From positions 336,970,001-337,034,000 of the forward strand of contig OZ024741.1 of NCBI GenBank assembly GCA_964016885.1: a DNA stretch of 64,000 bases. Reading direction: 5' to 3'. The notes under the pieces are model-generated. The model was not told where the DNA came from. It did not search any database and worked only from the letters and a program-made list of their open reading frames with translations. Of the stretch, positions 9,900 to 62,321 are shown piece after piece. Positions within the stretch are counted from its first letter, which is position 1. Each line of letters opens with the position of its first letter. Position numbers and translations under genes: made by a program. This stretch comes from Eledone cirrhosa. Taxonomy: Eukaryota.

Positions 9900-12400
9900 T
9901 AATGAATGTTTAATTAATTATTTGGTGGTATATTTAACATTATTTAAGTTTTAACTATATACTCAACGAAATGTCTTATTAATTTTGTGTAAACAATAAT
10001 TAAAAATTTAAGAGCGTTTATTAATAATTTTATGTCTACTATTTATGATGTGTAGAGTCTCTGTAGAACAGAGGTCACACCTCCTAGATATAAATCCATT
10101 TATATATGGAAAAGGATGTGAGAGTTTTGACCAAGAAAGGGAGTATTCCACTTGTTTATTTTTTAGCGACCAAATCAGTTCCGACAGGGCCGTGGTAGAT
10201 CTTTTATCAGTTCTTTTGAATGAGTGGCGATGGTTGTACCACCTTTCCTTAAATCTAATAGAAGTTGCACCAACATATCTATACGTCTTATTACTCGTTT
10301 TTACTTCAATTTCATAAACAATATTTTTCTCTAAACAGTTATTTTTCATTGGGCAACTATTGTGATTTCTGTAATTGCAATTATTTACGTTACCATTCAT
10401 TGTTCCCTCCCCGTGTCTGTGTGTCCATTGGTTTATCTCATTTATGTTAATGGTGTTATCCCTGTTATTCGAGTTTCTGTTTAATCTATCAGTGTTTCTA
10501 TGCTTGCTATTATGAATTATTTCTTTATGTTTAATTCCCAGATTTCTATTGTTAATCTTCGCTATATTCTGGGCTATACGTTTGGTTGTCGAGTAAGAAA
10601 GTTTATTTCTGTGTCGATTAAAGATTTGACTGTATTTATGTGATTTAGGGAAGCATTTATCTAATGCGTTAAAAAAATCCTAGCTATGTTTTTGTAGTCC
10701 TAAGGAGTGGGGTGGATTGTACCACAGAACGGAGCGGAATCTAACTCTCTTATTTAACGTTATGGTGGTATTTAAGTTATATCTATTTGGAGCTGGGTTT
10801 GTCCCATCTCTATTGTTTTGGGTTCGAGTACCCCTATTATTTCCATTACCGTTAATTGTGTGTATGTTAGTGTTTATGTCTATGGTTTGTTTGTGTCTAT
10901 GAGTGAGTGTGTAATAGTTTCTATCTATATGCATGTACTCAATTTTGTCCTGGTAATCTGCTGTAGCTAATTCATTATTATAGTATCTAGCATTGCCATC
11001 GAATATTTCCCTGTTGGCCGAGATTCTAGAGATTCTCTGTTCTACACTTTTTACTATTGCCTTATTAAGGTTTCTAGGGTGGTTTGAGAAGTAGATAACA
11101 TAACTGAGGTTTTCATTTAATTTATGGTATGGGTAGACTAGGCCAGAATTAAGGTTTAACGTTATGTCGAGGAATTTGGCTATTCTACTGTTATTTCCTA
11201 TTTCTAGCTTAAGACTGTAATTATTAAAAAAAGTCTATTATTATTTTCTTTTTCCTATTTAGGGCACTGTTATGGTTAATTAAAGTGAAAAGGGCATCAA
11301 CGCAGTACAAACCTCCACCCAGTTCCGACATCCTTTGTTTTAATTAGGTGTAAGATGTAAACTCCTACAAGGTCCGTAACCTGAGCTGAGTCTGTAGATC
11401 CCATAGTAATGTCGAAGTTTTTCGGTCTGTCCGCTCGAGTACATAATTCCCCGTTGAATTCAATTATCGTTTTTTTCTGGCCGTTAGAATAATGTTAACT
11501 TCCTCACTCAATAATGTTAACGTCATTGCGTATATAAGGGCCTTATTGAGTAGTGTTGGTGGAATTGATGAGTAGTAGCTAGTTATGTCCATTTGTATAA
11601 ATTTAGTCCTATTTTTGTTTTCTAGTTCGGTGAACTATTCAATAACCTCGTTGGTTCCATAGTTTTAGTTGGGTCCTCAGCTTTAATGTTGGTATAACCC
11701 TGTCTAATATGCTCTCACTTATGATTCCTAAGTTGGATTTAGATGATGCTATAAGTCTAACTGGTAGATCTGATTCAAAATTATGTTTATGATCTTTCAT
11801 ATTAATCCTCGGTGTTCTAGATATGTAAGGTTCCGTGTGGTGTTCGATCCCTAGCTTAGTGACTATTTCCTTAGCTTCCTTATTTATTGATTCAAGGTTT
11901 TCAGACGTCGTTTTACGATACCTTTTTCATAATTCTCTAATCCCTTAAGGTTATTGGTTTTGTCAAAGTGGACCAAAATTTAGTTTTCTGATTTTCTTTA
12001 ATCATGTCCCATAGCTTTTTCAGGTGCTTCTGACCTCTGTATGGATCTTTCCTGAATTTGACACCATGTATGATTTTGACCATTTCGTTTCCAAATTCCG
12101 CTAGATATTTGTTATATGGTGGGTTTTTCCTTGTCCTAAATTTCCACTCAAGATTATTCTTAGCTAGGCTATCCCGTTTTTTGCATGTTTTCTCATCAAA
12201 ATGGTAAGCCCGCCACCGCATTCTACGTACGGAGAAATCAGTTTTCTCAGTTAGTTTTTTGGTAAACTCTCTTTCTTGGTATAGGTACATCCTTAAGTGA
12301 TGTTGAGATCTTAAAAGACTCCATCTTTTCGGTATCTGTTATAGAAGAAGGCGCTCGATTGGGATAGGAGCACAAAAATCGTGGCGTGCTTTACATCTGT
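9900..12400 (-). mobile_element. Near full-length decayed Penelope-like element, Naiad-like (RT + GIY-YIG)
   Basis: RRMRWRAYHF, FIQMDITSYY, FDITMGS, FLDITLNL, VLWYNPP, CPMKNNCL-NIVYEIEV-YVGAT-FKERWYNH, CDLC; frameshifted. Clade label is from recalled motif pattern. Confidence 0.85.
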
Positions 12401-16516: not shown

Positions 16517-17095
16517 GTGTATCTGGATGTATGCGTATGTGTATATATATATGTGTGTGTGTGTGTATATATATGTGTGTTTATGTGTATATATGTGTGT
16601 GTGTTTGTATGTGTGTATGTATATATATGTGTGTGTGTGTATGTATGTGTGGGTGTGTATATATATGTGTATGTATATGTGTGTATATATGTGTATGTAC
16701 ACATATATATATATATATATATATATATGTGTATGTATATGTATATGTATGTATGTGTGGATGAAGGTATGTGTGTATATATAGGTGTAAGTGCACTAAA
16801 TCCCTTTCTATCAATCTCCCCTCTCCTACCGACCACAGGGAGATATATGTATGTATATTGCTTCCACCCCCTCACTGACCAGCACCTGGCCATCTGGCCA
16901 TTGCTAAATCTGACCTTTATAAAATAACCCACATAACCCAAATAACTTCTCATTCACTACCAGAAAGGCACACAGCAGTCAACTAGCTGCTACCAAGATG
17001 AAAACTACTATGAAATCCCACAATGAATTTTATACTTGAATTTTCAAATCTCAAATTTTAACTCTTCTTATTATTAATTTTTCTTAATATTAATC

Positions 17096-17143
17096 AACAT
17101 TTGAAAAGATGGCTTTTGCAGACCCATCGAAACCGGTCATTTT
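17096..17143 (+). ncRNA. Hammerhead motif with U3-A8 core variant
   Basis: AACAU-UUGAAAA-GAUGG-(11 nt)-CCAUC-GAAA-CCGG-UC-AUUUU. Confidence 0.65.
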
Positions 17144-17290
17144 TTATACCCTTTATTATTTCCTTACCTTATAAAATTATATGTTTTTTCACAAAAAAGT
17201 ATTCTGTCTCTTATATATTCCATGTGCCATTACCAACCTCAATTTTCTCTATAACCTTCGTTTTGTGTAGTAAATTACACTTTTCATATA

Positions 17291-17360
<70 letters not shown>

Positions 17361-23744: not shown

Positions 23745-23979
23745 GTTAGGTTTTTTTTACAAAATAAAAAATAACCGAGGTGTCCTACATGAGTGAAAAT
23801 ATAAAGAAAAAAAAGATGAAATCTAAAATGCAACTGGAGTCTTATTTAAAAATAAATATATATATTTATTTGGTTCCTTTACCGGTTTCGCAGTTCTTCT
23901 GCTTTTCAAAGGTAGAGTTGAGATGGAGGATCTGTGGTTTTTCTCACATCTTATATATATATATATATATACATACATA

Positions 23980-27917: not shown

Positions 27918-28720
27918 GAAAATAGACAAATTAATGTAAGCAAGAAGCCAACAGTAATTCAGACATATAAGTGACAATTATGTGAAGATGAAAAATATTT
28001 AACGTAAGATATGGGAAAATAATTTAATCCCAATTCAAAACAAGTCAAGACCAGACATTTTATCCACAGATTTTGTGTAATCCAGGGAAAAAACCAATAG
28101 AATCTTAACTCAAAATAAAATTAAGAGTAAATACTTATCCGTCAATTTTGAAAAATCTACAAATGCACTATATAGTCTTAAAAAGACTATTTCACGAAAC
28201 TTTTCAGTGGGGTTAGTCATGGTTGGAGTCGTTCGTCAATAGTGCTCAATACGTTAACTAAGTACCATAGCTAAAATATGCCAGAGGGGAATTTAAAAGC
28301 AGGCTAGTCAAACCTCGTATGGAATTGAATTAATAAACACACATGGAGACAGGGCTAGTGCCGTCAGAATGCGACGAATGTCTGTTTACAAGAAACGCAG
28401 TCAAAACATTCCGAAAAAAACTCAACAAAAGATATGGAGTTCAGTATAAAGCAATATTGTCGCGGTTTTTAAAAAAAAAAACGGGATTAGTCACAAATTA
28501 AGCACTCAAGGAAAAATTCCGAGTATAAATATATAAATGAAAATAGAGAAATTAATGTAAGCAAGAAGCCAACAGTAATTCAGACATATAAGTGACTATT
28601 CCGTCAAGATGAAAAATATTTAACGTAAGATATGGAAAAATAATTTAATCCCAATTCAAAACAAGTCAAGACCAGAAATTTTATCCACAGATTTTGTGTA
28701 ATCCGGGGAAAAAACCAATA
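27915..28720. repeat. ~185-bp direct repeats 620 bp apart (pLTR-like, between (TA)n tracts)
   Basis: atgaaaatag.aaattaatgtaagcaagaagcc...aaaaaaccaata at ~27917 and ~28537. Confidence 0.8.
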
Positions 28721-28862: not shown

Positions 28863-28995
28863 GGAGGAAGTTATAGTTCACTTGAAGCATTGTGTAATGA
28901 GGTATAAACGTTTGTATATGTATAATAAAGCCAAAACAATGCAGGTATGGACATAGAATAAAGAATGCAAATGCAAAAGATATTGTTGACAATTA

Positions 28996-29889
28996 GTGAA
29001 CCAGCTAGAATGCCGAGCCCTCAACACCTGCCATTCCCATACCTTCTTCACCCGATTTGTAGATGACATACTCATCCTTACATCATCCCGTGAGGAGGCA
29101 GATAAAATATACACAACATTCTCCAGCATGGACGCCAGTATAAATTTCAGCATGGAACACCCCGATGACCACGGATCACTATCCTTACTGGACTTCCAAC
29201 TCAGGGTAACAGAGGAAGGCAACATCCACACCTGCTTCTATAAAAAAGCCGCCAGCAGGGACCTGTTCGTACATTTCAGATCGGCCCTCCCAGCCGGCGC
29301 TAAGTTCGGATACATAAGGAACGAACTAACACGTATCCGGAACAAATGCACCGACGCTAGAGACCGAGACACACACACCACACATTTCCTGGAAGTACTC
29401 AAACTGAACGGATACACGACATCCACCACAAACCGTGCCAGAAAGAACAGAGGACACCACACCCGAGGCACTAACACTTGCTTCCTGAAGCTCCCACACT
29501 TCAGTGACGAAACAACAACAGCCATCTGCAGAGCTATCAGACGAGAGGGACTAGATATCCAACTGGTCCACTCAGGTCCTTCTCTACGCGGACAGCTAAT
29601 CAAAAGACACTCCACCAGACATGACAACTGCTGCAGGCTAGCCAACTGCCCCATCAACGACACAGACCTATGCCACCAGGCTTACGTCGTATACAGACTA
29701 GAGTGTGACAAATGCAGCAACTTCTACGTAGGTAGCACCACCAGACCACTCCACATAAGAATAAAAGAACACCTCAATACTAACGCTTCCTCATTTAAGA
29801 AACACCTAGTTAAATGCAAAAACACCGACAAAACCATAACAGTTAGGATAGAAACTAAGGAAAGAAACCTCGGCAATCTTAGAATTTAG
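28996..29889 (+). CDS. Penelope RT C-terminal half plus GIY-YIG endonuclease (truncated, stop near C-terminus)
   Basis: FTRFVDDIL, LSLLDFQL, CCRLANCPI, VVYRLECDKCSNFYVGSTTRPLHIRIKEH. Confidence 0.9.
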   Translation: MNQLECRALNTCHSHTFFTRFVDDILILTSSREEADKIYTTFSSMDASINFSMEHPDDHGSLSLLDFQLRVTEEGNIHTCFYKKAASRDLFVHFRSALPAGAKFGYIRNELTRIRNKCTDARDRDTHTTHFLEVLKLNGYTTSTTNRARKNRGHHTRGTNTCFLKLPHFSDETTTAICRAIRREGLDIQLVHSGPSLRGQLIKRHSTRHDNCCRLANCPINDTDLCHQAYVVYRLECDKCSNFYVGSTTRPLHIRIKEHLNTNASSFKKHLVKCKNTDKTITVRIETKERNLGNLRI

Positions 29890-30334
29890 GAAGCACTAAT
29901 TATAGACAAAACACAACCACCAATAAATAATAGACTAGAACTCAACACCCAATTTATAACTTGATAGAGCATCTAGCCCCATATTTACACTTCCCACACA
30001 CACACGCACACACACACACACACGCTTACACATCACACACACACATACACACACAAAGACCAGTTCTAACACGAGATAACATCTATCCCCCACATTTACG
30101 TATAGACATATCTTCTCACTCACACACACACACACACTCACATACTTACACCTTCATGCATTCTCCCACACACTTAAACAGACATGTAAAAAAAAAAAAC
30201 CTTTTAAAGGGAGACTACTCTTTATCCACCTAACCTAACTCTTTGACATTAGATATAGAACAGATACTCTATACCATTTCCTGTCAGCATGACTTGGCAA
30301 GCTATTTAGAACACTGGTTTAACCGCTTTACTTC

Positions 30335-30369
30335 CCTCCGAAGAAGAGATATTATCTCGAAAATTAAGG
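30335..30369 (+). ncRNA. Minimal hammerhead motif (U4C) in the PLE 3' UTR
   Basis: CCU-CCGAAGA-A-GAGAU-AUU-AUCUC-GAAA-AU-UA-AGG. Confidence 0.55.
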
Positions 30370-30483
30370 ACATTTAAATAAATCTAAGGTAAAAGACTAA
30401 TTGTCAACAATATCTTTTGCATTTGCATTCTTTATTCTATGTCCATACTTGCATTGTTTTGGCTTTATTATACATATACAAAC

Positions 30484-30570
<87 letters not shown>

Positions 30571-30801
30571 ATATCGTTTTTTACAAAAAACAATATAAAC
30601 AATTTTGAAACATAAGTTAAAACAGCTCAAAATACAGTAATTTATTATAATGAATAGTATAAAAGGCTGTTTCATACTTTTTAAAAATAGTTTTTCAAAC
30701 ATTCATGCGTAGAAAATCGTGTTGTGTTAAAAATAATAATTACGCATGAAGTAAATTATTCATTAAAGTAATTACCAAATACGTTTTTACATTAAATATT
30801 G

Positions 30802-30842
30802 ATTTACGAACGTTTCATCCTCTTCCTGGGACTTTTCAAAAC
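30802..30842 (-). ncRNA. Hammerhead motif with U3-A8 core variant
   Basis: GUU-UUGAAAA-GUCC-CAGGAAGA-GGAU-GAAA-CGUUCG-UA-AAU. Confidence 0.5.
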
Positions 30843-31706
30843 TAGTTATTTATAAGTAAATGTCTTGTTATGAAATTCACCAAACCACCCAACAATCAGC
30901 AGTCAGAACAACGGATTCTTAACTTGAGTGAGGTTGTGCTGAGAACGGAAGTGCATATGAGATGACATCGACAAGGGAGACATCTTAAGTTAGACTCTTG
31001 GGAGGGAGAGAATTGAGTTTATTTTGGGTAGAATTAGTCTGGGTCCGTGTAGTTACTTAACAAATATTTTTCTGCGTGAGGGTAGCGATTAGAAAAATCA
31101 GATCTTGAATTGAGACAGGTACAATTACGTAATCTCTGCAAGAGATAACCAGAGTACTCGATACTTGGGGTAGTAGAGCGTGTTCCTGAAATGCTCATAT
31201 ATTTAACAATATCAATAAGGGTTATGGTATCAATAATGATATGACGAAGACGGCGTTGATATAGTGGTGAACTCTTAGTATTTTGTGAATTGGCGAACAA
31301 CTGAAATAAGATAGAATGAGAAGATACAATAAATTGAATAAGAGTAGGAATCTGAGTATGATTTCAAATTTAATGTTTATAGGGTTCTTTTTTTAGTTTT
31401 GTGATTTCCACTGATTGCGCTAAACATAGTCAACACTTTCCGTGGCGCAGAGAGTCAGGGGCCGCGTCTCTACCTATATTTTAGTCTCCAGATCAAGTCA
31501 GCCAACCTTCTACAGGAGCGTTTGCTCTTGTTTTTCATATATCCACACAAAGAAACCAAGCTGACCGGCTAAAAGGACGTGCTTTAGCCACACATTAAAC
31601 ATCTATTGTGAATACCATTAACATCACACGTAATGAAAATTATGACTTGTTGTCATTGGTACCGATACACTATTCGATTTCTGTTACTAAAACAGACCTC
31701 TTAAAC

Positions 31707-32219: not shown

Positions 32220-35200
32220 AGTTGCATTTATCTTGCTTTATGTTCATACGAGTTATCACCAAGTCACAACCAGTGACGTCAACAGACAACAAGGTCCGCC
32301 ATGTTCAAGAAAGAACATACATACACACACATGCATCTTTATGTGTTTAGACTTGTGATGTACTTATATTGACAGAATCTTCCTTAGTATATGGGCAGTT
32401 CCCATTAGTACTATCTTTTGTATTTCTCCTATACGCGGGTTTCCTGGGATTTGCAATAAGTAATCATTAGACCCCTTAGGTATCATTCCTAGAGCACCTA
32501 CAACCACTGGTATTGTTTTAGTTCTCAATTTCCACATTTTTCCAATTTCTATCTCCAGGTCCTTATACTTGCTTAATTTTTCAAATGTTTTTATAGATAC
32601 ATTCTTGTCTATTGGAACGGACATATCAATTAGCAGGCATACCCTCTTTTTAAAGTCCTTCAGTATTATATCAGGTCTATTTGCATCTATTTTTCGGTCT
32701 GTTTGGATGCTAAAGTTCCACAAGATTGAGATGTGATCTTTTTCAAGTATAAGAGGTCGTTGATGCTCCCACCAATTCTTTTGATGGGGCAGGTCAAAAT
32801 GCTTACACATTATCCAATGTATGTATTGTGCAGCTCTGTCATGCCTGTTTAGGTATTCGGTTGGAGCTATAGGACTGCACATTGCAATTATATGATCAAT
32901 GGTCTCTGGTTGTTTTTTAAATAAACGGCATAATGGGTTGCATCCATTTTCATTATGTTGGCTTGGTAATTTTTTGTTGGCAGACACTGATCTTGTGCTG
33001 ATATAATCTGTCCTTCAGTCTCCGATTTCAGTCCAGAGGATGCCAACCACTGATGGGTTAAAGTTTTGTCAACATCAGGATTGTTAGCTCTTTCTGGGTA
33101 TTTTCCATACAGAGGATTTTCTTGCCATTTCTTAGCCAGTTTCTGTAGCAGTTCTTTCTTTGCAGTTACTTTTACCTGCTTTGCTTTTTCTGTGTTTTCC
33201 ATTTCAGCAGTAAATGGGACTTCTGCAATTTGTATTCCATTACTGTATCTTCGTGCATCTTTTGTAATGGAGTATGATCTTTTGATGCTTTCGTGTTTCA
33301 AAACGAGTTTGATCATCCAATCATGTGATTCCCTTAGATATGTAGATAATCCAATTGTTGCAGTTTTCAACGCAATATCTAACTGGATTAACCCACGTCC
33401 TCCTTCTTTCCTAGGGAGATATATTCTATCTGTATCTGCCTTAGGGTGATGTATTCTGTTCATGGTTAAGAATTTTCTAATTTTTGTATCGAGCCTACGG
33501 ATCTCTGTGCTTGACCAGTTGATGATATTGTAACTGTAGATTACTACTGGTATGGCAAGCGTGTGTATGGCATCGATCCTATTCCTTGCATTTAATTCCG
33601 TTCTTAAGATTGCTCTTACTCTGCGGTAACATTTCTTCCTTATCCTTTCCCTCATTGTCGAGTGCTTGATTCCGTCTCCTTCACAAACACCTAGATATTT
33701 GTAAGTTTCCTCTTGATCAAGTTCTATTATCACATTCCCCCGATCAAGATCAATGTCTGACCTTTTCAGCAGCTTTCCTCTGGTGAACGTTGCTTTGGCG
33801 CATTTATCTAGTCCAAACTCCATTTTAATGTCATGACTGAACTGTTCCACAGTGGATTTGCCCTTGCAATTGTTCATCATTTTTTGCAAATAGTTTCAGG
33901 TCATCCATGTAGAACAAGTGATTAATGGTTTTGTCATAGACTTTATATCCATGTTTTGTTTCATTGAGTATTTTACTTAATGGTATAAGTGCGATGCAGA
34001 ATAAAAGCGGTGATAAAGAGTCACCCTGAAAAATTTCACAATTAATATTAACTTCGCCAGCTTCCAGTGATTTTTTTTCACTTTTCAAAAGGAGTGTCGT
34101 TTTCCATGTCTTCATACTGAATGACAGGAACCTCCTGACAACGGGAGATATTTTGAAGATCTCTAAAGATTTTTCAATCCAACTGTGTGGCAAACTATCG
34201 AATGCTTTTTTATAATCTATCCAAGCAATCGATAGATTTTTGTGTCTATTATGACAATCTTCCAGTATCATTTTGTTAACCAAAAGCTGATCCTTACAGC
34301 CGTATGAGCCTCGTTTACACCCTTTCTGCTCATTGAGAAATAGATAATTTGTTATCAGGTGGTCATATGTATATTCAGTTAGGACTGATGTTAACATTTT
34401 ATACATTGTGGTCAAGCAAGTTATCGGTCTGTAATTTTTGGGATTGTTTGTCTCTTCATTCTTCGGAAGCAGGAATGTAATGCCGTTAACTAGCCATGGT
34501 GGTACCTTTTCTGGCTCCTTAACTATATAGCGAAGAACTCGCGGTGTATGAATGTAACAAGGAGACATGGTTTGTGTGTATAATATTTAATCAACAATTT
34601 AACAGTATAGTTGACATGTCAATGAATAAACGAAAGAATGAAGCAAAGTTAGTAGTTACCGTTTTGATTGCCAGGCAAACGCAGGCTGGCAGAAGACGCC
34701 TGGCGAAGGCCAGGCGCCGGAAGGGCAAATGAGAGAGTGAGAACTTAAAGTTGTTAGTTTTATAGGGTTCTGACCGGAAGTTACAGAAAGGGTTCTACTT
34801 CCCGTCTAGATGTTGTTAATCTATTGGGGTTGTGAGTCACAACAAGGGAGACAACTGCTACAACTATTTCATTGTAAAGTTGAGCTAACAGCTCATGAGA
34901 CTCTGTGAGAGCATTTATCCAAAAATTTGGTATTTTGTCTTTTCCTGGGGATTTCCATTTGCTGGTTTTTCTGAGAGCCAAACGCAACTGTTCAACTGTT
35001 ATATTTTCCCATATTTGTTCTTCAAGGTGAGCTGTATCTTTCATTTGTCTGTCTATCCATGGGGCATGTATATTATGAACTTTTTCTTCGGCCCAGATCT
35101 TTTCCCAGAATTCTTGCACTTCCTCCTTGGGTGGTATTGATTTAGCAGTTATTGTTGACTTGCCAATTTTTCTGTAGAAGTTTCTTTGGTTGTTTTTGAG

Positions 35201-36540
35201 CATATTATTGTCCTTATAGAATCTAGATCGTTTTTCAAAGCGTCTTATACGAGCAGCTTTGGCTGACACTTTTTGCTTGATTATTTCTATCAGCATGTCT
35301 ATGTCACTTGTTGATTTTATACTGTATTTTCTTTTCAATTTTCTAAGTTTAGTTTGTTTAACATGTTCACCTACTTTGTAGTTTGTTAAAATTTCTATGT
35401 CAGATCGGAGGTTTATTTGGCGATTGATGTTCTCTTGCCAAGTAGATTTCTTGTGGGAATTCCTTTGTTTTTTCATTTTCACTCCACATAAGTGAGTGGT
35501 GACTTTAGCCGATGCATAATAGAGATGATTTAAATCAGTAATGTTTAGTTTGTTTGTGATGATAATATTTTTGAGAATTATGTTAGTCTTGTGTATTATC
35601 TTTTGGTTCTGTTTGGAGTTCTGGATCTTAGGGAGGGTGTCTCGTTCCCCCATGTCAGATTCTTTCATTTTCATCCATTCGATCATAATTTCATCCTTCA
35701 AGTTGGCAAGTTCATTCTCATTCATTTCTTTATCATTTACGATCTCATTGTTTTCATTTTGAGTTTCATCTTGAGCATGCACTTCCCCACTTTTTCGATC
35801 CTTTCTTTAATTTGTTCTGTTGTCAGTGATTCCGCCCAATCCTGGGATTCGAAGTGTTACAATTTACTTCGTTTTCACTGACACATGTTTCAATTTCCCT
35901 TCGCTGACTTTGTGCTAATAGTTGATCTGATCAATTTCTATATCAGTTAGTAACTTTTTTTTTACAATATTTCTTCGTATATTGGCTAGTTTCTTACTGT
36001 CAATATAGCCTCTGTTTTCGGGATGTTTCTTTTTCCAGTTGATATATGTCTGTTCTGTATTCGATCTATTTGATGGGTAGTACATGGTAGTGTAGAAAGC
36101 CTCAAGGACTTCTTTATTGTCTTACCTTGACCATTTTTCTCTCTTTTTCTTTGGATTTCTTGGTAGTGAGCATGGAGGGCCAACAGTAGGAGTATTCCGG
36201 TTGTGGGAGGTCTCCAGCTCCGAAGTGATAGGAAGGTTTGAACCATTAGCTGATTTTTAGACCCCAGTCTGGTTCCTCTCTGAGGGACGCGGCCCTTTTT
36301 GACCCGGGTGACATCCGCTCCGGTATGAGATTTTATCATTTGACATTTACTTTATTTTGTCGCGTTTTATCCTTAACCGCCAAGGGGTAATCATTTCGTG
36401 TTACCACTTCTAGGACGAGTGTCAACCAAGACTAGAGGGGTCGTCCTCCCCTAGAGACACGGCTATTCCCCGCCGGCCTCCATCCCGGTATTTCTTGGTC
36501 ACGGTGTTTTCTTTTTTGTTGTTTTTTAAATTGTTATTAT
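32220..36540 (-). mobile_element. R4/Dong-clade non-LTR retrotransposon (RT + restriction-like endonuclease), near full length, frameshifted
   Basis: WIDYKKAFDSLPH, QGDSLSPLLF, HLFYMDDLK, CRL..ETIDHI..C, RHD, NRPD; 3' end runs into (TAA)n. Confidence 0.93.
34526..34862. mobile_element. Solo LTR (Gypsy-like) inserted in the Dong ORF
   Basis: Ends TATAGC (TG>TA) ... GCTACA, 4-bp TSD ACTA; removal restores YNEIVKEPEKVP. Confidence 0.75.
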
Positions 36541-42609: not shown

Positions 42610-42726
<117 letters not shown>

Positions 42727-42900
42727 GAATGTATATATAGTGTATTTTGCAATACACTGTATGCTTAATAAAAAAGCATTTTGAAGACCTTATGCTATTG
42801 TTTTAGAGTAGTGACAGACTCACTTTAATTTCAGCAAACAGGGATGAGTAGTCTATAAGAACCAAAACATCCAGGTTCTCAGCAAACGGGAGGAGTAGTT

Positions 42901-42946
42901 GGCTTTGATAAGCATCAATAAATGCAGAAACAAGGCCTTGTCAGCT
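42901..42946 (+). ncRNA. Type-I hammerhead, U3-A8 variant, extended stem I
   Basis: GGCU-UUGAUAA-GCAU-CAAUAA-AUGC-A-GAAA-CAAGGCCUUG-UC-AGCU, closed by tcagcaaacggga / cccctgtttgctga. Confidence 0.7.
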
Positions 42947-43103
42947 TTATCTCCCCCTGTTTGCTGAAATTAAAGTAAGTGAGTCTGTCACTACTCTAAA
43001 ACAATAGCATAAGGTCTTCAAAATGCTTTTTATTAAGCATACAGTGTATTGCAAAATACACTATATATACATTCATATATATATAGCTATTTCAGAGCAA
43101 CAA

Positions 43104-43167
<64 letters not shown>

Positions 43168-43449
43168 TGTATATATAATGTATTTGGTAATACACTGTAT
43201 GCTTAATTAAAAGCATTTTGAAGACCTTACGCTATTGTTTTAAAGTAGTGACTATGTCACTTACTTCTTTTTTCAACAAACAAAGGGAGATGAGCTGATA
43301 GATCTCTGTTTCATACTGTTGGTATTCCTCAGAGCTAAGCACTCCCTTTTTGTTGGACCGGCAACCGCTCTGTATAATCAGTTCCTGATTATTACTGGAA
43401 TTCTATAAGATTCCAACATTCATAATTTTCAACAAACAAAGGGAGTGCT

Positions 43450-43495
43450 AAGCTCTGAGGAATACCAACAGTATGAAACAGAGATCTATCAGCTT
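43450..43495 (+). ncRNA. Type-I hammerhead, extended stem I
   Basis: AAGCU-CUGAGGA-AUAC-CAACA-GUAU-GAAA-CAGAGAUCUA-UC-AGCUU within a 20-bp outer stem ttttcaacaaacaaagggag / ctccctttgtttgttgaaaa. Confidence 0.72.
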
Positions 43496-44534
43496 ATCTC
43501 CCTTTGTTTGTTGAAAAAAGAAGTAAGTGACATAGTCACTACTTTAAAACAATAGCGTAAGGTCTTCAAAATGCTTTTAATTAAGCATACAGTGTATTAC
43601 CAAATACATTATATATACATTCATATATATACATCGCTATTTCAGAGCACCAATTCTAATTTTCAATTTCTGATGGACCGGCAACCGCTCTGTATAATCA
43701 GTTCCTGATTATTCCTGGAATTCTATAAGAATTCAACATTCATAATTTTCAACAAACAAAGGGAGTGCTAAACTCTGAGGAATACCAACAGTATGAAACA
43801 GAGCTCTGAGGAATACCAACAGTATGAAACAGAGCTCCCTTTGTTTGTTGAAAAAAGAAGTAAGTCACATAGTCACTACTTTAAAACAATAGCGTAAAGT
43901 CTTCAACATGCTTTTAATTAAGCATACAGTGTATTACCAAATACACTATATATACATTCATATATATATATCGCTATTTCAGAGCACTAATTCTAATTTT
44001 CATATATATATAGGTCAGGATCGAAAAATTTCAGAAAGCTACTCTCACTATTGACAACAAAATGTTTTTCCTTATGTACAAATGGATGATTGTATGACAT
44101 CTGTGGGCAAAGTGTGATGCAGCATAGAGAAGCTTGGGCTGTGATTGCAGAGGACATGTGTAGACTGGAGCAGGATGAATCACAAATTCTTCGATGGATA
44201 TGCAATGTAAATGTGTGAGAAAAGAAAGCAGAGCTTGGACGAGCTGAGTAAGGAACTGGGTTTAAGAGGAATCCGTAGTGGTGTGCAGGAGAGAAGTCTG
44301 CACCGGTATGGACTTGTGATTCACAAGGAAAATGCCAGTGTAAAGAAGATGAAGTAGAGGTAGACAAAGACCTGGGCAGAGATGTTGAGAGCTGACCTCA
44401 AATCACAGAAATTCCCAAAAGAGATGACGAAGGAACATGGCAAGTGGAAAAATGGTGTGCTGAGAAGGAATCATCCAACCCACGCAAGCATGGAAAAATG
44501 GACGTAAAACAATGATGATGTATATATGTATATA

Positions 44535-45477
44535 TACTCTGCCCCAAATGCAAACAATTGGTACACAAGAGATGTAGTGGGATCTCAGGAACTTTAACTA
44601 AGAATGTAGGCTTCATATATTGCAGCTGTGCTGGGACAGCAAACAGCGAACGACCACAGGAAACAAGTACCACTAATCTCTGGGAGGGCTCTGTAGAAAC
44701 AGTAGACAGCTTCTACTACCTAGGTGACCAAATTAGCAGCGGAGGTGGGTGTTCGGAAAGTACAATAACTAGGGTGAGAACGGGATGGAAGAAGTTCAGG
44801 GAGCTACTGCCACTGCTAGCTGCAAAAGGCTTTTCCCTCAAAATGAAAGGCAGACTGTATGATGCGTGTATACGAACACCAATGTTACATGGAAGTGAAA
44901 CCTGGGCGCTGTCTGTAGAAGACTTGCGCAGTTTAGAAAGAAACGAAGCTTGCATGCTCCGATGGATGTGTAATAGTAATATACGCAAATGGCAAAATAT
45001 AAACAAATTGAGAGAGAGACTGAGCATAAGAGGAATCAAATGCTGTGTGCAGGAGAGGATTTTATGTTGGTATGGACATGTGATGCGTATGAAGGATGAC
45101 AGCTGCATAAAAAGGTGCAGAGCACTAGAAGTCAATGGAAACTGCGGAATGGGGAGACCCAAGAAGACATGGGATGAGGTGATAAAAGCCGACCTTACCC
45201 AATTGCACCTCTCAAAGACAATGACACATGACCGTGACCTCTGGCGGCACGCAGTAATACAGACTACCCGACCTCCCATGGGTACAAGCCGAAGCTGAAG
45301 CATATAGAAAATATGCCCCCACAACGTCCCACTGCAAAGTAGTCGTGGAGGTGCCGCGGCAAAAAAGCACCCAGCCCACACTGTAAAGTGGTTGTTGAGG
45401 TGCCATGGCAAAAAAGCATCCAGCACACACTGTAAATAAGTTTGGTGTAAGGAAGAGCATCCAGCTGTAGAAATCAT
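44535..45477 (+). mobile_element. RTE-clade LINE 3' fragment
   Basis: WVHKRCSGI, FYYLGD, MLHGSETW, WYGHVMR, GRPKKTW (ORF 44558-45298). Confidence 0.9.
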
Positions 45478-52009: not shown

Positions 52010-54300
52010 CATCATCACCGTTTTACGTCCGTTCTTCCACGCTAGCATGGGTTAGACGGGTTGTCCTGTTGTGGGCAGTGTCTGGTCGGCTGACCATGCC
52101 TCGCTCATACAGGAAGTGTTTTGGCTTGATTTCTACAGCTGGATGCCCTTCCTAACACCAACCTCATTTACAGTGAGTGCTGGGTGCTTTTTCGTGGCGC
52201 CTACACGTCCACTTTACAGTGTGGGCTGGGTGCTCTTTTTTGCCGTGGCACCTCCACGACCACCTTGCGGTGGGGGGTGTGGGGGCATATTGTCTATATG
52301 CTTCAGCTTGTACCCATGGGAGGTCGGGTACTCTGTATTACTGCATGACGCCAGAAGTCACGGTCGTGTGTCATTGTCTTTGAGAGGTGCAATTGGGTAA
52401 GGTCGGCTTTTATCACCTCATACCAGGTCATCTTGGGTCTCCCCACTCCGTGGTTTCCATCAACTTCTAGTGCTCTGCACCTTTTTATGCAGCTGTCATC
52501 CTTCATACGCATCACATGTCCATACCAGCGCAACCGCCTCTCCTGCACACAGCATTTGATTCCTCTTATGCTCAGTCTCTCTCTCAATTCATTTATGCTT
52601 TGTCGTTCACGTATATTACTGTTACACATCCATCGGAGCATGCAGGCTTCGTTTCTCTCTAATCTACGTAAGTCTTCCACCTTCAGCGCCCAGGTCTCAC
52701 TACCATGCAACATCGCTGTTCAGATACACGCATCATACAGTCTGCCTTTCATTCTGAGGGAGAAGCCTTTTGCAGCTAGCAGAGTAGTAGTTCCCTAAAC
52801 TTCTTCCATCCCGTTCTTACCCTAGTTATTGTACTTTCTGAACACCCACCTCCGCTGCTAATTCAGTCACCTAGGTAGAAGAAGCTGTCTACTGTTTCTA
52901 CAGGGCCCTCCCAGAAATTGGTGGTATTTGTTTCCTGTGGCTGTTTGCTGCTTGCTGTCTCAGCATAGCTGCTGCATGTGAATCCTACATTCTTAATTAA
53001 GCTTCCTGAGATCCCGCTACATCTCTTGTGAACCCATTGTTTGCATTTGGGGCAGAGAATGGAGTTCCTACCTACACCTTTCCTACATACTGAGCAAGGC
53101 CATTTCCCTGAGGGGATCTGGGTTCTGTTTTCTTGTCTACTTACAAGGACCTTAGTCTTTGTCATGTTGACTTTGAGACCCTTTCTTTCTAGTCCCTGCT
53201 TCCAAGTTTGGAATTTATTCTCTAGTTCTACCATAGATTCAGCTATGAGTGCGAGGTCATCAGCATACAGGAGTTCCTATGGGCATCCGGTCTTACACTC
53301 CTCCGTTATTGCCTGCAGGACTATGATGAACAGGAGAGGGCTAAGAACAGAGCCCTGGTGGACCCCAACCTGTACGCTAAATTCCTCGCTATACTCATTG
53401 CTAATCCTAACTTTGCTGACTGCTCCCCTATACATGGCTTGTACCACTTTCACAAGCTATTCATCTACTCCTAGTTTTCTAAGAGCCCACCAGATTACAG
53501 AACGTGGAACTCTGACAAAGGCTTTCTCAAGGTCGACAAATGCCAAGTAGAGTGGCTTACTTTTAGCTAGGTACTTTTCCTGTAATTGCCTCACAAGGAA
53601 GAGGGCATCAGTGGTGCCTCTCCCTGGTACAAACCCAAATTGCATCTCGTCTATTTTCACCCGGTCCCTAATCAGCTGTGCTATAACTCTTTCTGTTACT
53701 TTCATGACCTGGTCCATCAACTTTATACCTCTATAGTTTCCTCTATCTAGTGCATCGCCTTTACCTTTGTAGCAGTTGACAATGATGCTACTGCACCAAT
53801 CTTTTGGTATGGCACCTTCTAGTATTACCTGGTTAACGATACGTGTGGTTATAGTGTGACCTACAGACCCAGATGCCTTCAGCATCTCGGCAGCTATACC
53901 CGATGGACCGGTTGCCTTCCCCATCTTCATATCTTTGATTGCCTTACTTACTACGCTGCTGCTGACTTGTACTGCTGGTCCCACTATAGGGTCTACTTGG
54001 GGTAGAGTCTCTTCTTCCCATGCATTCTCCTCATTTAGTAATCTATCATAATGACTCTTCCATGCATCTTTCTTCTCAGCACTTGTGAGGGCAAGCTCAC
54101 CTTTATCATTCCGGATACACTTCTCTCCAATGACATCACAACTATCTCTGACACACTGCCTCACAATCTTGAATACCTCCTGTTTCTGGTCCTCACGTTG
54201 CAAAACATGCTTGAATTTTCTATCGTCTGCTTCCCTCCTAGCTAAGTATACTTGTCGCCTAGCTTCCCTCTTGGTTTCTATGTAATGTACCCTGCTCCCC
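52010..54300 (-). mobile_element. 5'-truncated RTE-clade LINE (RT with Cys/His finger insert)
   Basis: NYRGIKL, QFGFVPGRGTTDA, FVDLEKAF, LYADDL, WPCSVCRKGVGRNSILCPKCKQWVHKRC, LRWYGHV; stops and frameshifts. Confidence 0.93.
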
Positions 54301-54419
54301 CCATGTATATGTTTGTATATATACATACATATATATTTATATATATATATATATACATATCATCATATACATCATCATCATATATATACATATATATATA
54401 TATATGTATGTATAAATAC

Positions 54420-59703: not shown

Positions 59704-59764
<61 letters not shown>

Positions 59765-60049
59765 CAAATAACGAAACGAAATTAAATTTCGTTTCGCTTC
59801 TAACTCACTTTTGTATGACTGACGCTTAAACAATTAAGTTAAAGTGTACATCTACATATGTATACGGAAGTATTAGTATGCATATAAATACACACATGTA
59901 TACATATGTACATGTACTCAGCTTTTCACTAGACACTTTACAGTGAGTGTCAGCTAGTCTGTATGTAACCACACAGGCGGACCGGGTTTTAGAGTCATAC
60001 GAGTTTTCAAGGAAACACATTTCCTCTATTCTCCAGAGGGCCAGACAGG

Positions 60050-60094
60050 AATATTGGACTAGTTTCGATGTTATTACATCTCATCAGCAATATT
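60050..60094 (-). ncRNA. Type-I hammerhead ribozyme
   Basis: Reverse complement of 60606-60650. Confidence 0.85.
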
Positions 60095-60605
60095 TACCCA
60101 TCTTCCGGCTTCTCTGGAGAATTGTAAAAGCACATATCGTTATATGCTTTTTCTATGAAAATTAGTAGTGGGTAGACTAATTTGCATAGAACGTGAGTCA
60201 TTGTACGCACCGGTTCAGCGGAAACGATAAAAACAAATAACGAAACGAAATTTAATTTCGTTTCGCTTCTAACTCACTTTTGTATGACTGACGCTTAAAC
60301 AATTAAGTTAAAGTGTACATCTACATATGTATACGGAAGTATTAGTATGCATATAAATACACACATGTATACATATGTACATGTACTCAGCTTTTCACTA
60401 GACACTTTACAGTCATACAAAAGTGAGTTAGAAGCGAAACGAAATTAAATTTCGTTTCGTTATTTGTTTTTATCGTTTCCGCTGAACCGGTGCGTACAAT
60501 GACTCACGTTCTATGCAAATTAGTCTACCCACTACTAATTTTCATAGAAAAAGCATATAACGATATGTGCTTTTACAATTCTCCAGAGAAGCCGGAATAT
60601 GGGTA

Positions 60606-60650
60606 AATATTGCTGATGAGATGTAATAACATCGAAACTAGTCCAATATT
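60606..60650 (+). ncRNA. Type-I hammerhead ribozyme
   Basis: AAUAUUG-CUGAUGA-GAUGU-AAUA-ACAUC-GAAA-CUAG-UC^-CAAUAUU; canonical core, GUC site. Confidence 0.88.
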
Positions 60651-61074
60651 CCTGTCTGGCCCTCTGGAGAATAGAGGAAATGTGTTTCCTTGAAAACTCG
60701 TATGACTCTAAAACCCGGTCCGCCTGTGTGGTTACATACAGACTAGCTGACACTCACTGTAAAGTGTCTAGTGAAAAGCTGAGTACATGTACATATGTAT
60801 ACATGTGTGTATTTATATGCATACTAATACTTCCGTATACATATGTAGATGTACACTTTAACTTAATTGTTTAAGCGTCAGTCATACAAAAGTGAGTTAG
60901 AAGCGAAACGAAATTTAATTTCGTTTCGTTATTTGTTTTTATCGTTTCCGCTGAACCGGTGCGTACAATGACTCACGTTCTATGCAAATTAGTCTACCCA
61001 CTACTAATTTTCATAGAAAAAGCATATAACGATATGTGCTTTTACAATTCTCCAGAGAAGCCGGAAGATGGGTA

Positions 61075-61119
61075 AATATTGCTGATGAGATGTAATAACA
61101 TCGAAACTAGTCCAATATT
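61075..61119 (+). ncRNA. Type-I hammerhead ribozyme
   Basis: Identical copy, +469. Confidence 0.88.
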
Positions 61120-61543
61120 CCTGTCTGGCCCTCTGGAGAATAGAGGAAATGTGTTTCCTTGAAAACTCGTATGACTCTAAAACCCGGTCCGCCTGTGTGG
61201 TTACATACAGACTAGCTGACACTCACTGTAAAGTGTCTAGTGAAAAGCTGAGTACATGTACATATGTATACATGTGTGTATTTATATGCATACTAATACT
61301 TCCGTATACATATGTAGATGTACACTTTAACTTAATTGTTTAAGCGTCAGTCATACAAAAGTGAGTTAGAAGCGAAACGAAATTTAATTTCGTTTCGTTA
61401 TTTGTTTTTATCGTTTCCGCTGAACCGGTGCGTACAATGACTCACGTTCTATGCAAATTAGTCTACCCACTACTAATTTTCATAGAAAAAGCATATAACG
61501 ATATGTGCTTTTACAATTCTCCAGAGAAGCCGGAAGATGGGTA

Positions 61544-61588
61544 AATATTGCTGATGAGATGTAATAACATCGAAACTAGTCCAATATT
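61544..61588 (+). ncRNA. Type-I hammerhead ribozyme
   Basis: Identical copy, +938. Confidence 0.88.
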
Positions 61589-62012
61589 CCTGTCTGGCCC
61601 TCTGGAGAATAGAGGAAATGTGTTTCCTTGAAAACTCGTATGACTCTAAAACCCGGTCCGCCTGTGTGGTTACATACAGACTAGCTGACACTCACTGTAA
61701 AGTGTCTAGTGAAAAGCTGAGTACATGTACATATGTATACATGTGTGTATTTATATGCATACTAATACTTCCGTATACATATGTAGATGTACACTTTAAC
61801 TTAATTGTTTAAGCGTCAGTCATACAAAAGTGAGTTAGAAGCGAAACGAAATTTAATTTCGTTTCGTTATTTGTTTTTATCGTTTCCGCTGAACCGGTGC
61901 GTACAATGACTCACGTTCTATGCAAATTAGTCTACCCACTACTAATTTTCATAGAAAAAGCATATAACGATATGTGCTTTTACAATTCTCCAGAGAAGCC
62001 GGAAGATGGGTA

Positions 62013-62057
62013 AATATTGCTGATGAGATGTAATAACATCGAAACTAGTCCAATATT
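62013..62057 (+). ncRNA. Type-I hammerhead ribozyme
   Basis: Identical copy, +1407. Confidence 0.88.
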
Positions 62058-62269
62058 CCTGTCTGGCCCTCTGGAGAATAGAGGAAATGTGTTTCCTTGA
62101 AAACTCGTATGACTCTAAAACCCGGTCCGCCTGTGTGGTTATATACAGACTAGCTGACACTCACTGTAAAGTGTCTAGTGAAAAGCTGAGTACATGTACA
62201 TATGTATACATGTGTGTATTTATATGCTTACTAATACTTCCGTATACATATGTAGATGTACACTTTAAC

Positions 62270-62321
<52 letters not shown>

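What the first reader, a model, noticed from the sequence alone, without database searches (positions are those of the whole stretch)
42901..43495. C3-G8 to U3-A8 compensatory swap in the catalytic core, within one family and in three other motifs
Seen: the homologous family-C elements carry CUGAGGA (43455-43461) and UUGAUAA (42905-42911). Stems II, III and the outer stem differ in sequence but stay paired. UUGAAAA cores also occur at 17101-17107 (+), 30833-30839 (-) and ~23903-23909 (-, stem I register off by one). Known: positions 3 and 8 form a tertiary Watson-Crick pair in the active hammerhead, and U3-A8 rescues activity. Inference: these are functional variants that standard CUGANGA searches miss, not decay.
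Basis: partly seen in the sequence, partly recalled or inferred. Interest (0 to 1): 0.75.

Follow-up and report, generated by a model that had tools for sequence, protein, structure and literature searches.

The report
Retrozyme family with swapped hammerhead core
A 320-base non-coding jumping repeat in this animal genome carries a hammerhead motif, predicted to cut its own RNA, whose core pair is C-G in about 700 copies and U-A in about 2,000; the U-A swap is already published for other elements, but here both states, an extra-base variant and a predicted on/off fold can be compared within one family.

Summary
The 42905 and 43455 motifs belong to one ~320-nt retrozyme-like repeat. Genome-wide exact counts: U3-A8 1,961, C3-G8 687, U3-G8 32, C3-A8 28. 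A tree with positions 3 and 8 masked splits the two backgrounds once (100/99): one swap followed by amplification, not repeated covariation. The three other motifs are U3-A8 in their own repeat families; 17101 is the terminal-repeat hammerhead of a young Penelope-like element. Corrections: the window's C3-G8 copies are themselves damaged, and the 23903 'register shift' is a point change. Natural U3-A8 cores are in print (PMC3088659; about 1,300 in Schistosoma Penelope elements, PMC4209133), and this scan noted U3-A8 retrozymes before on other DNA, including this genome. Cleavage and expression are untested. Verdict: real, a new variant of a known kind, moderate interest.

The parts
42716..42843 (-). 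Inverted, 5'-truncated partner segment of the U3-A8 insertion (no ribozyme core); ends approximate
   Evidence: (blast map of the 321-nt unit on the window)
42852..43110 (+). Sense segment (259 nt, less than one unit) of the U3-A8 extra-A subfamily, ending at the longer of the two preferred 3' ends
   Evidence: near-identical copies genome-wide
42876..42972 (+). Type I hammerhead motif with long stem I: U3=42905, A8=42910, stem II 42912-15/42922-25, G12=42927, palindromic stem III 42930-42941, predicted cut after C17=42942
42926..42926 (+). Extra A between C11.1 and G12, fixed in one subfamily; the sister subfamily lacks it
   Evidence: 10 of the first 100 U3-A8 matches; 21 of 149
43111..43163 (.). 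(TA)n tract between the two separate insertions; likely the target
   Evidence: TA-rich sequence follows 150 of 195 preferred 3' ends
43153..43349 (-). Inverted 5' partner of the C3-G8 insertion, with a hammerhead copy (C3=43332) carrying the same 16.2 change
   Evidence: (I16, 98% complementary)
43347..44002 (+). Sense segment of the C3-G8 (AUAC stem II) subfamily, about two tandem units, cores 320 nt apart; end approximate
   Evidence: (D18)
43426..43520 (+). C3-G8 hammerhead motif: C3=43455, G8=43460, G12=43475, C17=43490; private G16.2-to-A change at 43488 breaks the 15.2-16.2 pair
43775..43836 (+). Second-unit hammerhead, rearranged: 31-nt internal duplication (cores at 43775 and 43806) and no cleavage triplet
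16986..17292 (+). Terminal repeat (pLTR) of a young Penelope-like element; U3-A8 minimal hammerhead at 17101-17138
   Evidence: 99% match to both repeats of L294, which flank RT and GIY-YIG pieces; 40 best genome hits 99-100% identical
23876..23913 (-). U3-A8 minimal hammerhead motif of a third repeat family (GUA site); partner element not identified
30800..30844 (-). Worn copy of the U3-A8 hammerhead motif of a fourth, older repeat family (GUA site, 5-bp stem I in the family)

Best explanation
The 42905 and 43455 motifs are copies of two lineages of one ~320-nt non-coding repeat (a retrozyme-like element, likely pasted in by Penelope-type enzymes) whose type I hammerhead core pair changed once between C3-G8 and U3-A8, and the U3-A8 form likely still cuts, because it went on to found most of the copies. 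Shown: unit length and tandem spacing, copy counts, a single split on the tree, at least six U3-A8 subfamilies with compensated stems, insertion ends of Penelope type. Inferred: tandem transcripts are cut to unit length by pairs of hammerheads joined through the palindromic stem III, the monomer is ligated to a circle, and Penelope RT/endonuclease copies it into TA tracts; selection acts only on the source RNAs while inserted copies decay. Predicted: in the U3-A8 lineage a lone copy folds into an off state (positions 2.4 to G5 paired with the 5' strand of stem III) and only a pair folds into the active shape. Direction C-G to U-A is likely (C subfamilies are more diverged; C3-G8 is the general consensus) but the tree is unrooted.
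For: Counts U3-A8 1,961 / C3-G8 687 / U3-G8 32 / C3-A8 28; 9 of the 32 and 21 of the 28 single mutants sit on C-lineage stems, the rest on U-lineage stems (read from the listings). Flank-anchored sample of 178 copies: no double change across backgrounds. Tree of 86 copies with 3 and 8 masked: 24 C-background against 62 U-background rows, 100/99. Among nine subfamily consensuses 105 of 320 columns and 19 of 45 ribozyme columns vary, but none of ten core positions. Stem II: 3 of 4 pairs change on both sides; stem III: 2 of 6. Architecture: 195 of 296 segments end at two sites about 28 nt apart, 84 of 133 loci have a head-to-head inverted partner, 59 of 296 segments exceed one unit, up to 1,280 nt, matching Penelope tails and inversions (passages). 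Folding: monomer gap 3.5-7.0 kcal/mol in five U subfamilies against 0.7 in the C-AUAC one; double hammerhead favoured by 1.4-3.2 per ribozyme. Natural U3-A8 cores reported, and called active in vitro in earlier work (PMC3088659 section 8).
Against: No cleavage or expression data. The swap is one event, so it gives no statistical covariation by itself. 5' ends of insertions do not pile up at the cut site (7 of 225 U and 0 of 71 C segments at +1 to +5). A U3-G8 sub-lineage reached four loci and an extra A reached about a tenth of the U3-A8 copies, so the core is not strictly guarded. In vitro, hammerhead mutants of an Anolis Penelope element still insert (PMC11167929). Eight of the ten core positions were demanded by the pattern used to build the consensuses; the C-GUAC and U-CAAATA consensuses rest on two copies each. 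The off helix follows partly from the stem III palindrome repeating the stem I/core strand, rests on few changes, and is also predicted for the C-ACAC subfamily (gap 4.1). No autonomous partner with this terminal repeat was found.
Confidence: 0.72

Rival explanations
1. The ribozyme is weak or dispensable in the U lineage: two GC-to-AT changes (the favoured direction in a 33% GC genome) were fixed in a successful source copy and hitch-hiked, as did the extra A.
For: Single event; U3-G8 sub-lineage at four loci; extra A in the core junction; no 5'-end signal at the cut; catalytic mutants still insert in vitro (PMC11167929); all four U3-A8 families lie in an AT-rich genome.
Against: After the swap, stems II and III kept changing by compensation while the core stayed fixed across at least six subfamilies; four families without sequence similarity outside the core all show U3 with A8, none a fixed single change.
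Confidence: 0.15
2. The repeat is not a circle-forming retrozyme but the terminal repeat of an unseen autonomous Penelope element, or is copied from linear tandem transcripts; the ribozyme only trims transcript ends.
For: The 17101 motif is exactly such a terminal-repeat hammerhead; insertion ends are of Penelope type; retrozymes are reported to be related to pLTRs (bioRxiv 10.64898/2026.07.22.740005, abstract and passages).
Against: The unit closes on itself at 317-321 nt, forms arrays up to four units, and no shared Penelope ORF junction was seen among about 300 fetched loci.
Confidence: 0.12
3. The U3-A8 motifs are decayed or chance look-alikes of C3-G8 hammerheads.
For: Individual copies do decay (core mismatches 45 of 1,771 positions); three of the motifs fold no better than shuffles.
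Against: 1,961 against 60 single mutants; U3 with A8 in 31 of 31, 42 of 44 and 24 of 26 aligned copies of the other three families, none C3-G8 (these are best hits to the window copies, so biased towards them).
Confidence: 0.01

Closest known systems
Metazoan non-LTR retrozymes (Cervera and de la Pena 2020, PMC7229834; passages read)
   Same: Non-coding 170-400-nt unit, low GC, type I hammerhead with 4-bp stem II and palindromic stem III, dimers to multimers, proposed Penelope mobilisation.
   Different: Both core states in one family; mostly dispersed partial and inverted insertions; that paper predicts most animal circles leave the ribozyme free to fold, whereas here the U3-A8 monomer is predicted to be blocked by self-pairing; circles and cleavage not shown here.
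U3-A8 minimal hammerheads of Schistosoma mansoni Cercyon Penelope elements (Cervera and de la Pena 2014, PMC4209133; parts 1-2 of 4 read)
   Same: Same core swap, found by homology after the descriptor missed it, about 1,300 hits; Penelope terminal-repeat setting as for 17101.
   Different: Those are minimal motifs with long stem II and a bulge between 9 and 10.1; the main family here is a canonical-size motif with a long stem I and, in one subfamily, a bulge between 11.1 and 12.
Natural hammerhead core variants (Perreault et al. 2011, PMC3088659; section 8 and passages read)
   Same: First natural C3-G8 to U3-A8 covariation; notes earlier in vitro activity.
   Different: Its text lists insertions A6a, U13a and 2a/2b, not one between 11.1 and 12 (figure 5 and supplements not seen).
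Poseidon element PAc of Anolis (PMC11167929; section 3 part 2 and passages read)
   Same: Two reverse-transcription start sites giving a tail, AT-rich targets, hammerhead in the terminal repeat with the start codon at stem II (as at 17101), 3-8 double-mutant rescue.
   Different: Autonomous element; C3-G8 core; its ribozyme needed protein and was not needed for insertion in vitro.

Membership tests
Type I hammerhead ribozyme | Core U4 G5 A6 / A9 / G12 A13 A14 A15.1 / U16.1 H17 in order around three stems | tested here: met
   extra A before G12 in the 42905 subfamily only
Type I hammerhead ribozyme | Watson-Crick pair 3-8 | tested here: met
   2,648 of 2,708 matches are C-G or U-A
Type I hammerhead ribozyme | Stems supported by compensatory changes | tested here: met
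   (46 chosen rows; related sequences, few independent events)
Type I hammerhead ribozyme | Rfam hammerhead model at gathering score | tested here: not met
   Best U3-A8 copies 24.8-28.4 bits to HH9 (cut-off 52); 42905 and 43455 not listed at E<=1; C3-G8 copies not among the 150 of 191 rows shown
Type I hammerhead ribozyme | Self-cleavage at NUH | not testable with these tools
   no assay; 5'-end test uninformative
Non-LTR retrozyme | Non-coding 170-400-nt unit with one type I hammerhead, in tandem copies | tested here: met
   317-321 nt, GC 0.34, 59 of 296 segments longer than one unit; no ORF of 120 aa or more lies within it
Non-LTR retrozyme | Expressed as linear and circular unit-length RNA | tested here: inconclusive
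   no RNA holder listed
Non-LTR retrozyme | Penelope-type insertion marks (tail, 5' truncation, inverted partner, AT-rich target) | tested here: met
Penelope-like element (17101 motif) | Direct terminal repeats with hammerhead flanking RT plus C-terminal GIY-YIG | tested here: met
   L294: repeats 4,885 nt apart, third copy inverted; RVT_1 E 8e-4 and GIY-YIG E 8e-4, both under Pfam cut-off, frames broken
Penelope-like element (17101 motif) | Clade assignment by RT phylogeny | not tested
   a Cys motif before the GIY-YIG domain suggests Neptune or Nematis (passage); no tree made

The most novel reading that the evidence does not exclude
The U3-A8 lineage turned its hammerhead into a monomer-off, dimer-on switch: position 3 serves both in the catalytic 3-8 pair and in a blocking helix with stem III (C-G, then U-G, then U-A along the tree), which protects the RNA circle from cutting itself and helped the lineage outnumber C3-G8 three to one; its youngest branches add an active natural core with a bulged A between 11.1 and 12, not found in the papers searched.
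Probability: 0.3. Interest if true: 0.62.

Novelty: new variant of a known kind. Interest (0 to 1): 0.42.

Why it matters
It gives a natural series within one family (C3-G8, U3-A8, U3-G8, with and without an extra core A) for testing how far the hammerhead's catalytic pair can be exchanged in vivo, and a concrete answer to test for an open point in the retrozyme paper: how animal RNA circles avoid cutting themselves. It also shows that CUGANGA descriptors would miss about three quarters of this family's ribozymes and three further families in one 64-kb window.

Tried and rejected
5' truncation points as a footprint of cleavage: no pile-up at the cut, and the flank anchor biases the sample. RNA evidence: no RNA holder listed; three runs of unknown kind from one study; two were laid and show only that both the extra-A and plain forms and G at 43488 exist in other contigs. 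Autonomous partner of the main family: scattered Penelope ORF pieces near about 20 fetched loci, no shared junction seen. Rfam: no hammerhead at gathering score. 3:8 pair count on alignment A1 is 100% by construction, since only C-G and U-A rows were chosen; not used as evidence. The 28239(-) U3-G8 motif looked like a further variant but its relatives are C3-G8. Papers not held: Przybilski and Hammann 2007, Lunse et al. 2017, Nelson and Uhlenbeck 2008, Thomson et al. 1996. Look-ups near the finding and by sequence among earlier findings returned nothing.

Full report
Observation. The five cores lie at the stated coordinates. The window comes from a 3.0-Gb, AT-rich animal assembly rich in (TA)n tracts. 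The 42905 and 43455 elements align over the ribozyme and about 170 nt downstream. A loose descriptor finds on average 0.15 U3-A8 motifs per shuffled window (20 shuffles) against four plus one junk hit in the real one.

What the element is. The sequence closes on itself as a unit of 317-321 nt (cores 320 apart in the window, 321 in L008). The window holds two separate insertions on either side of a (TA)n tract: a U3-A8 one (42716-43110) and a C3-G8 one (43153-44002), each with an inverted 5' partner. Across 296 segments from flank-anchored loci, 123 end 138-146 nt and 72 end 160-176 nt after the predicted cut; TA-rich sequence follows 150 of these 195; 84 of 133 loci have a head-to-head inverted partner; 59 segments exceed one unit, the longest 1,280 nt. 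These are the marks described for Penelope-like insertions (passages) on a unit of the size described for animal non-LTR retrozymes (passages).

The 3:8 test. One degenerate pattern over the family's core and stem II, run for each purine/pyrimidine combination, gave U3-A8 1,961, C3-G8 687, U3-G8 32, C3-A8 28, controls 0. The pattern needs the rest of the core intact and counts tandem and inverted copies separately. Subfamily-specific patterns agree: 98 of the first 100 of 524 matches are U3-A8 and 92 of the first 100 of 270 are C3-G8. A sample anchored outside the ribozyme (loci; 178 copies) has 143 U-A, 4 U-G, 1 C-A, 1 A-A on the U background and 25 C-G, 2 C-A, 1 C-C, 1 C-U on the C background. 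A tree of 86 of 128 near-full-length copies (of 211 found; at most 15 per subfamily, single mutants over-sampled; positions 3 and 8 masked) separates 24 C-background from 62 U-background rows at 100/99. So the swap happened once and single mutants are mostly scattered later changes. Inserted copies decay (45 core mismatches in 1,771 positions against 738 in 16,628 flank positions); the sign of selection is in the source lineages: among nine subfamily consensuses 105 of 320 columns vary but none of ten core positions, and stems II and III change by compensation. Caveats: eight of those ten positions were part of the collecting pattern, though the flank-anchored sample showed no subfamily with a shared core change; two consensuses rest on two copies. 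Mean divergence from consensus is 0.023-0.040 for U subfamilies with three or more copies and 0.039-0.051 for C subfamilies, which suggests C-G to U-A, but the tree has no outgroup.

(1) The 42905 subfamily has an extra A between C11.1 and G12 (10 of the first 100 U3-A8 matches; 21 of 149), nested inside a sister subfamily without it. Searches and the text of PMC3088659 section 8 and PMC4209133 parts 1-2 did not show this natural insertion; their figures and supplements were not seen and Lunse et al. 2017 was not held. I recall, without a call, an in vitro selection (Thomson et al. 1996) in which such a bulge was tolerated at lower efficiency. (2) Within that subfamily a U3-G8 form with shared diagnostic changes reached four loci on three contigs, two as tandem arrays. 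(3) Folding: in the U subfamilies the lowest-energy monomer pairs positions 2.4 to G5 with the 5' strand of stem III; the hammerhead shape costs 3.5-7.0 kcal/mol more in five of them (2.3 in a sixth whose consensus carries a stem III change), 0.5-0.7 in two C subfamilies and 4.1 in the third. In a modelled tandem pair with an artificial linker the double hammerhead is favoured by 1.4-3.2 kcal/mol per ribozyme in all six tested. In that helix position 3 pairs as C-G (9 rows), U-G (26) or U-A (9). This is a secondary-structure prediction and partly a by-product of the palindrome. (4) None of the window's C3-G8 copies is intact.

The other three motifs. Each belongs to its own repeat family with no similarity to the others outside the core. 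Among best hits, U3 with A8 is seen in 31 of 31 (17101), 42 of 44 (23903; two deleted) and 24 of 26 (30833; one U-U, one deleted) aligned copies, none C3-G8 (biased towards the query). The 17101 motif is the terminal-repeat hammerhead of a young Penelope-like element: in L294 two direct copies 4,885 nt apart flank broken RT and GIY-YIG frames, with a third inverted copy. Stem I is weak in the 17101 and 23903 families and these motifs fold no better than shuffles alone, as expected for minimal motifs but also a weakness. Whether the four families reached U3-A8 independently was not tested.

Mechanism. Most likely tandem copies are transcribed, two ribozymes pair through the palindromic stem III and cut after GUC, the unit is circularised, and Penelope enzymes start reverse transcription at one of two sites and insert at TA tracts. 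Only the DNA anatomy and counts are shown. Against: no pile-up of 5' ends at the cut (7 of 225 U and 0 of 71 C segments), tolerated core oddities, and in vitro insertion by ribozyme mutants of PAc.

Known or new. Natural U3-A8 cores were reported in 2011 (PMC3088659) and about 1,300 in Schistosoma Penelope elements in 2014 (PMC4209133). This scan has noted U3-A8 retrozymes and Penelope stubs before, in this genome and others; these are unchecked notes, seen after my reading was formed. What this locus adds is both states in one family with counts and a tree, the extra-A and U3-G8 branches, and the predicted switch. Verdict: real, new variant of a known kind, interest 0.42.

Noticed in passing
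window 17108-17138 (+); L294 1969-2035: An ATG lies at the start of stem II of the Penelope terminal-repeat hammerhead, as described for PAc, but its frame stops after 21 codons; a GT follows nine codons in, at the cleavage triplet, so an intron may join it to the main ORF.
   Followed up: partly
window 23880 (-) and 30805 (-): In both families the GUA cleavage triplet begins a sequence like a 5' splice site, so cutting and splicing could compete.
   Followed up: no
window 29664-30907; L285 1487-3134: The 30833 element and the 3' part of a Penelope RT/GIY-YIG frame (28990-29889 +) lie tail to tail in the window and in the same arrangement at a second locus.
   Followed up: partly
window 59758-62280: 469-nt tandem array with an inverted part and five C3-G8 type I hammerheads (HH9 28.7-31.8 bits): an ordinary young retrozyme.
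   Followed up: no
window 16045(+), 17630(-), 24323(+), 27515(-), 27669(+); 46656(-), 57225(-); 14247(-): Further C3-G8 minimal hammerhead families with a bulge between 9 and 10.1.
   Followed up: no
window 28170-28245 (-): Hammerhead motif with long stem III and an AUA site; U3-G8 here, C3-G8 in relatives at L008 and L168.
   Followed up: partly
L161, L169-L172, L180, L181: U3-G8 sub-lineage of the extra-A subfamily at four loci; one copy in the L169 array has A8.
   Followed up: yes
flank-anchored loci: Segments longer than one unit are 2 of 26 in the extra-A subfamily against 20 of 59 in its sister, but also only 7 of 68 in the C-AUAC subfamily; not interpreted.
   Followed up: no
window 32364-35806 (-), 44519-45298 (+), 52303-54359 (-), 10008-12338 (-): Broken retrotransposon reading frames (LINE-like and Penelope-like by eye).
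   Followed up: no
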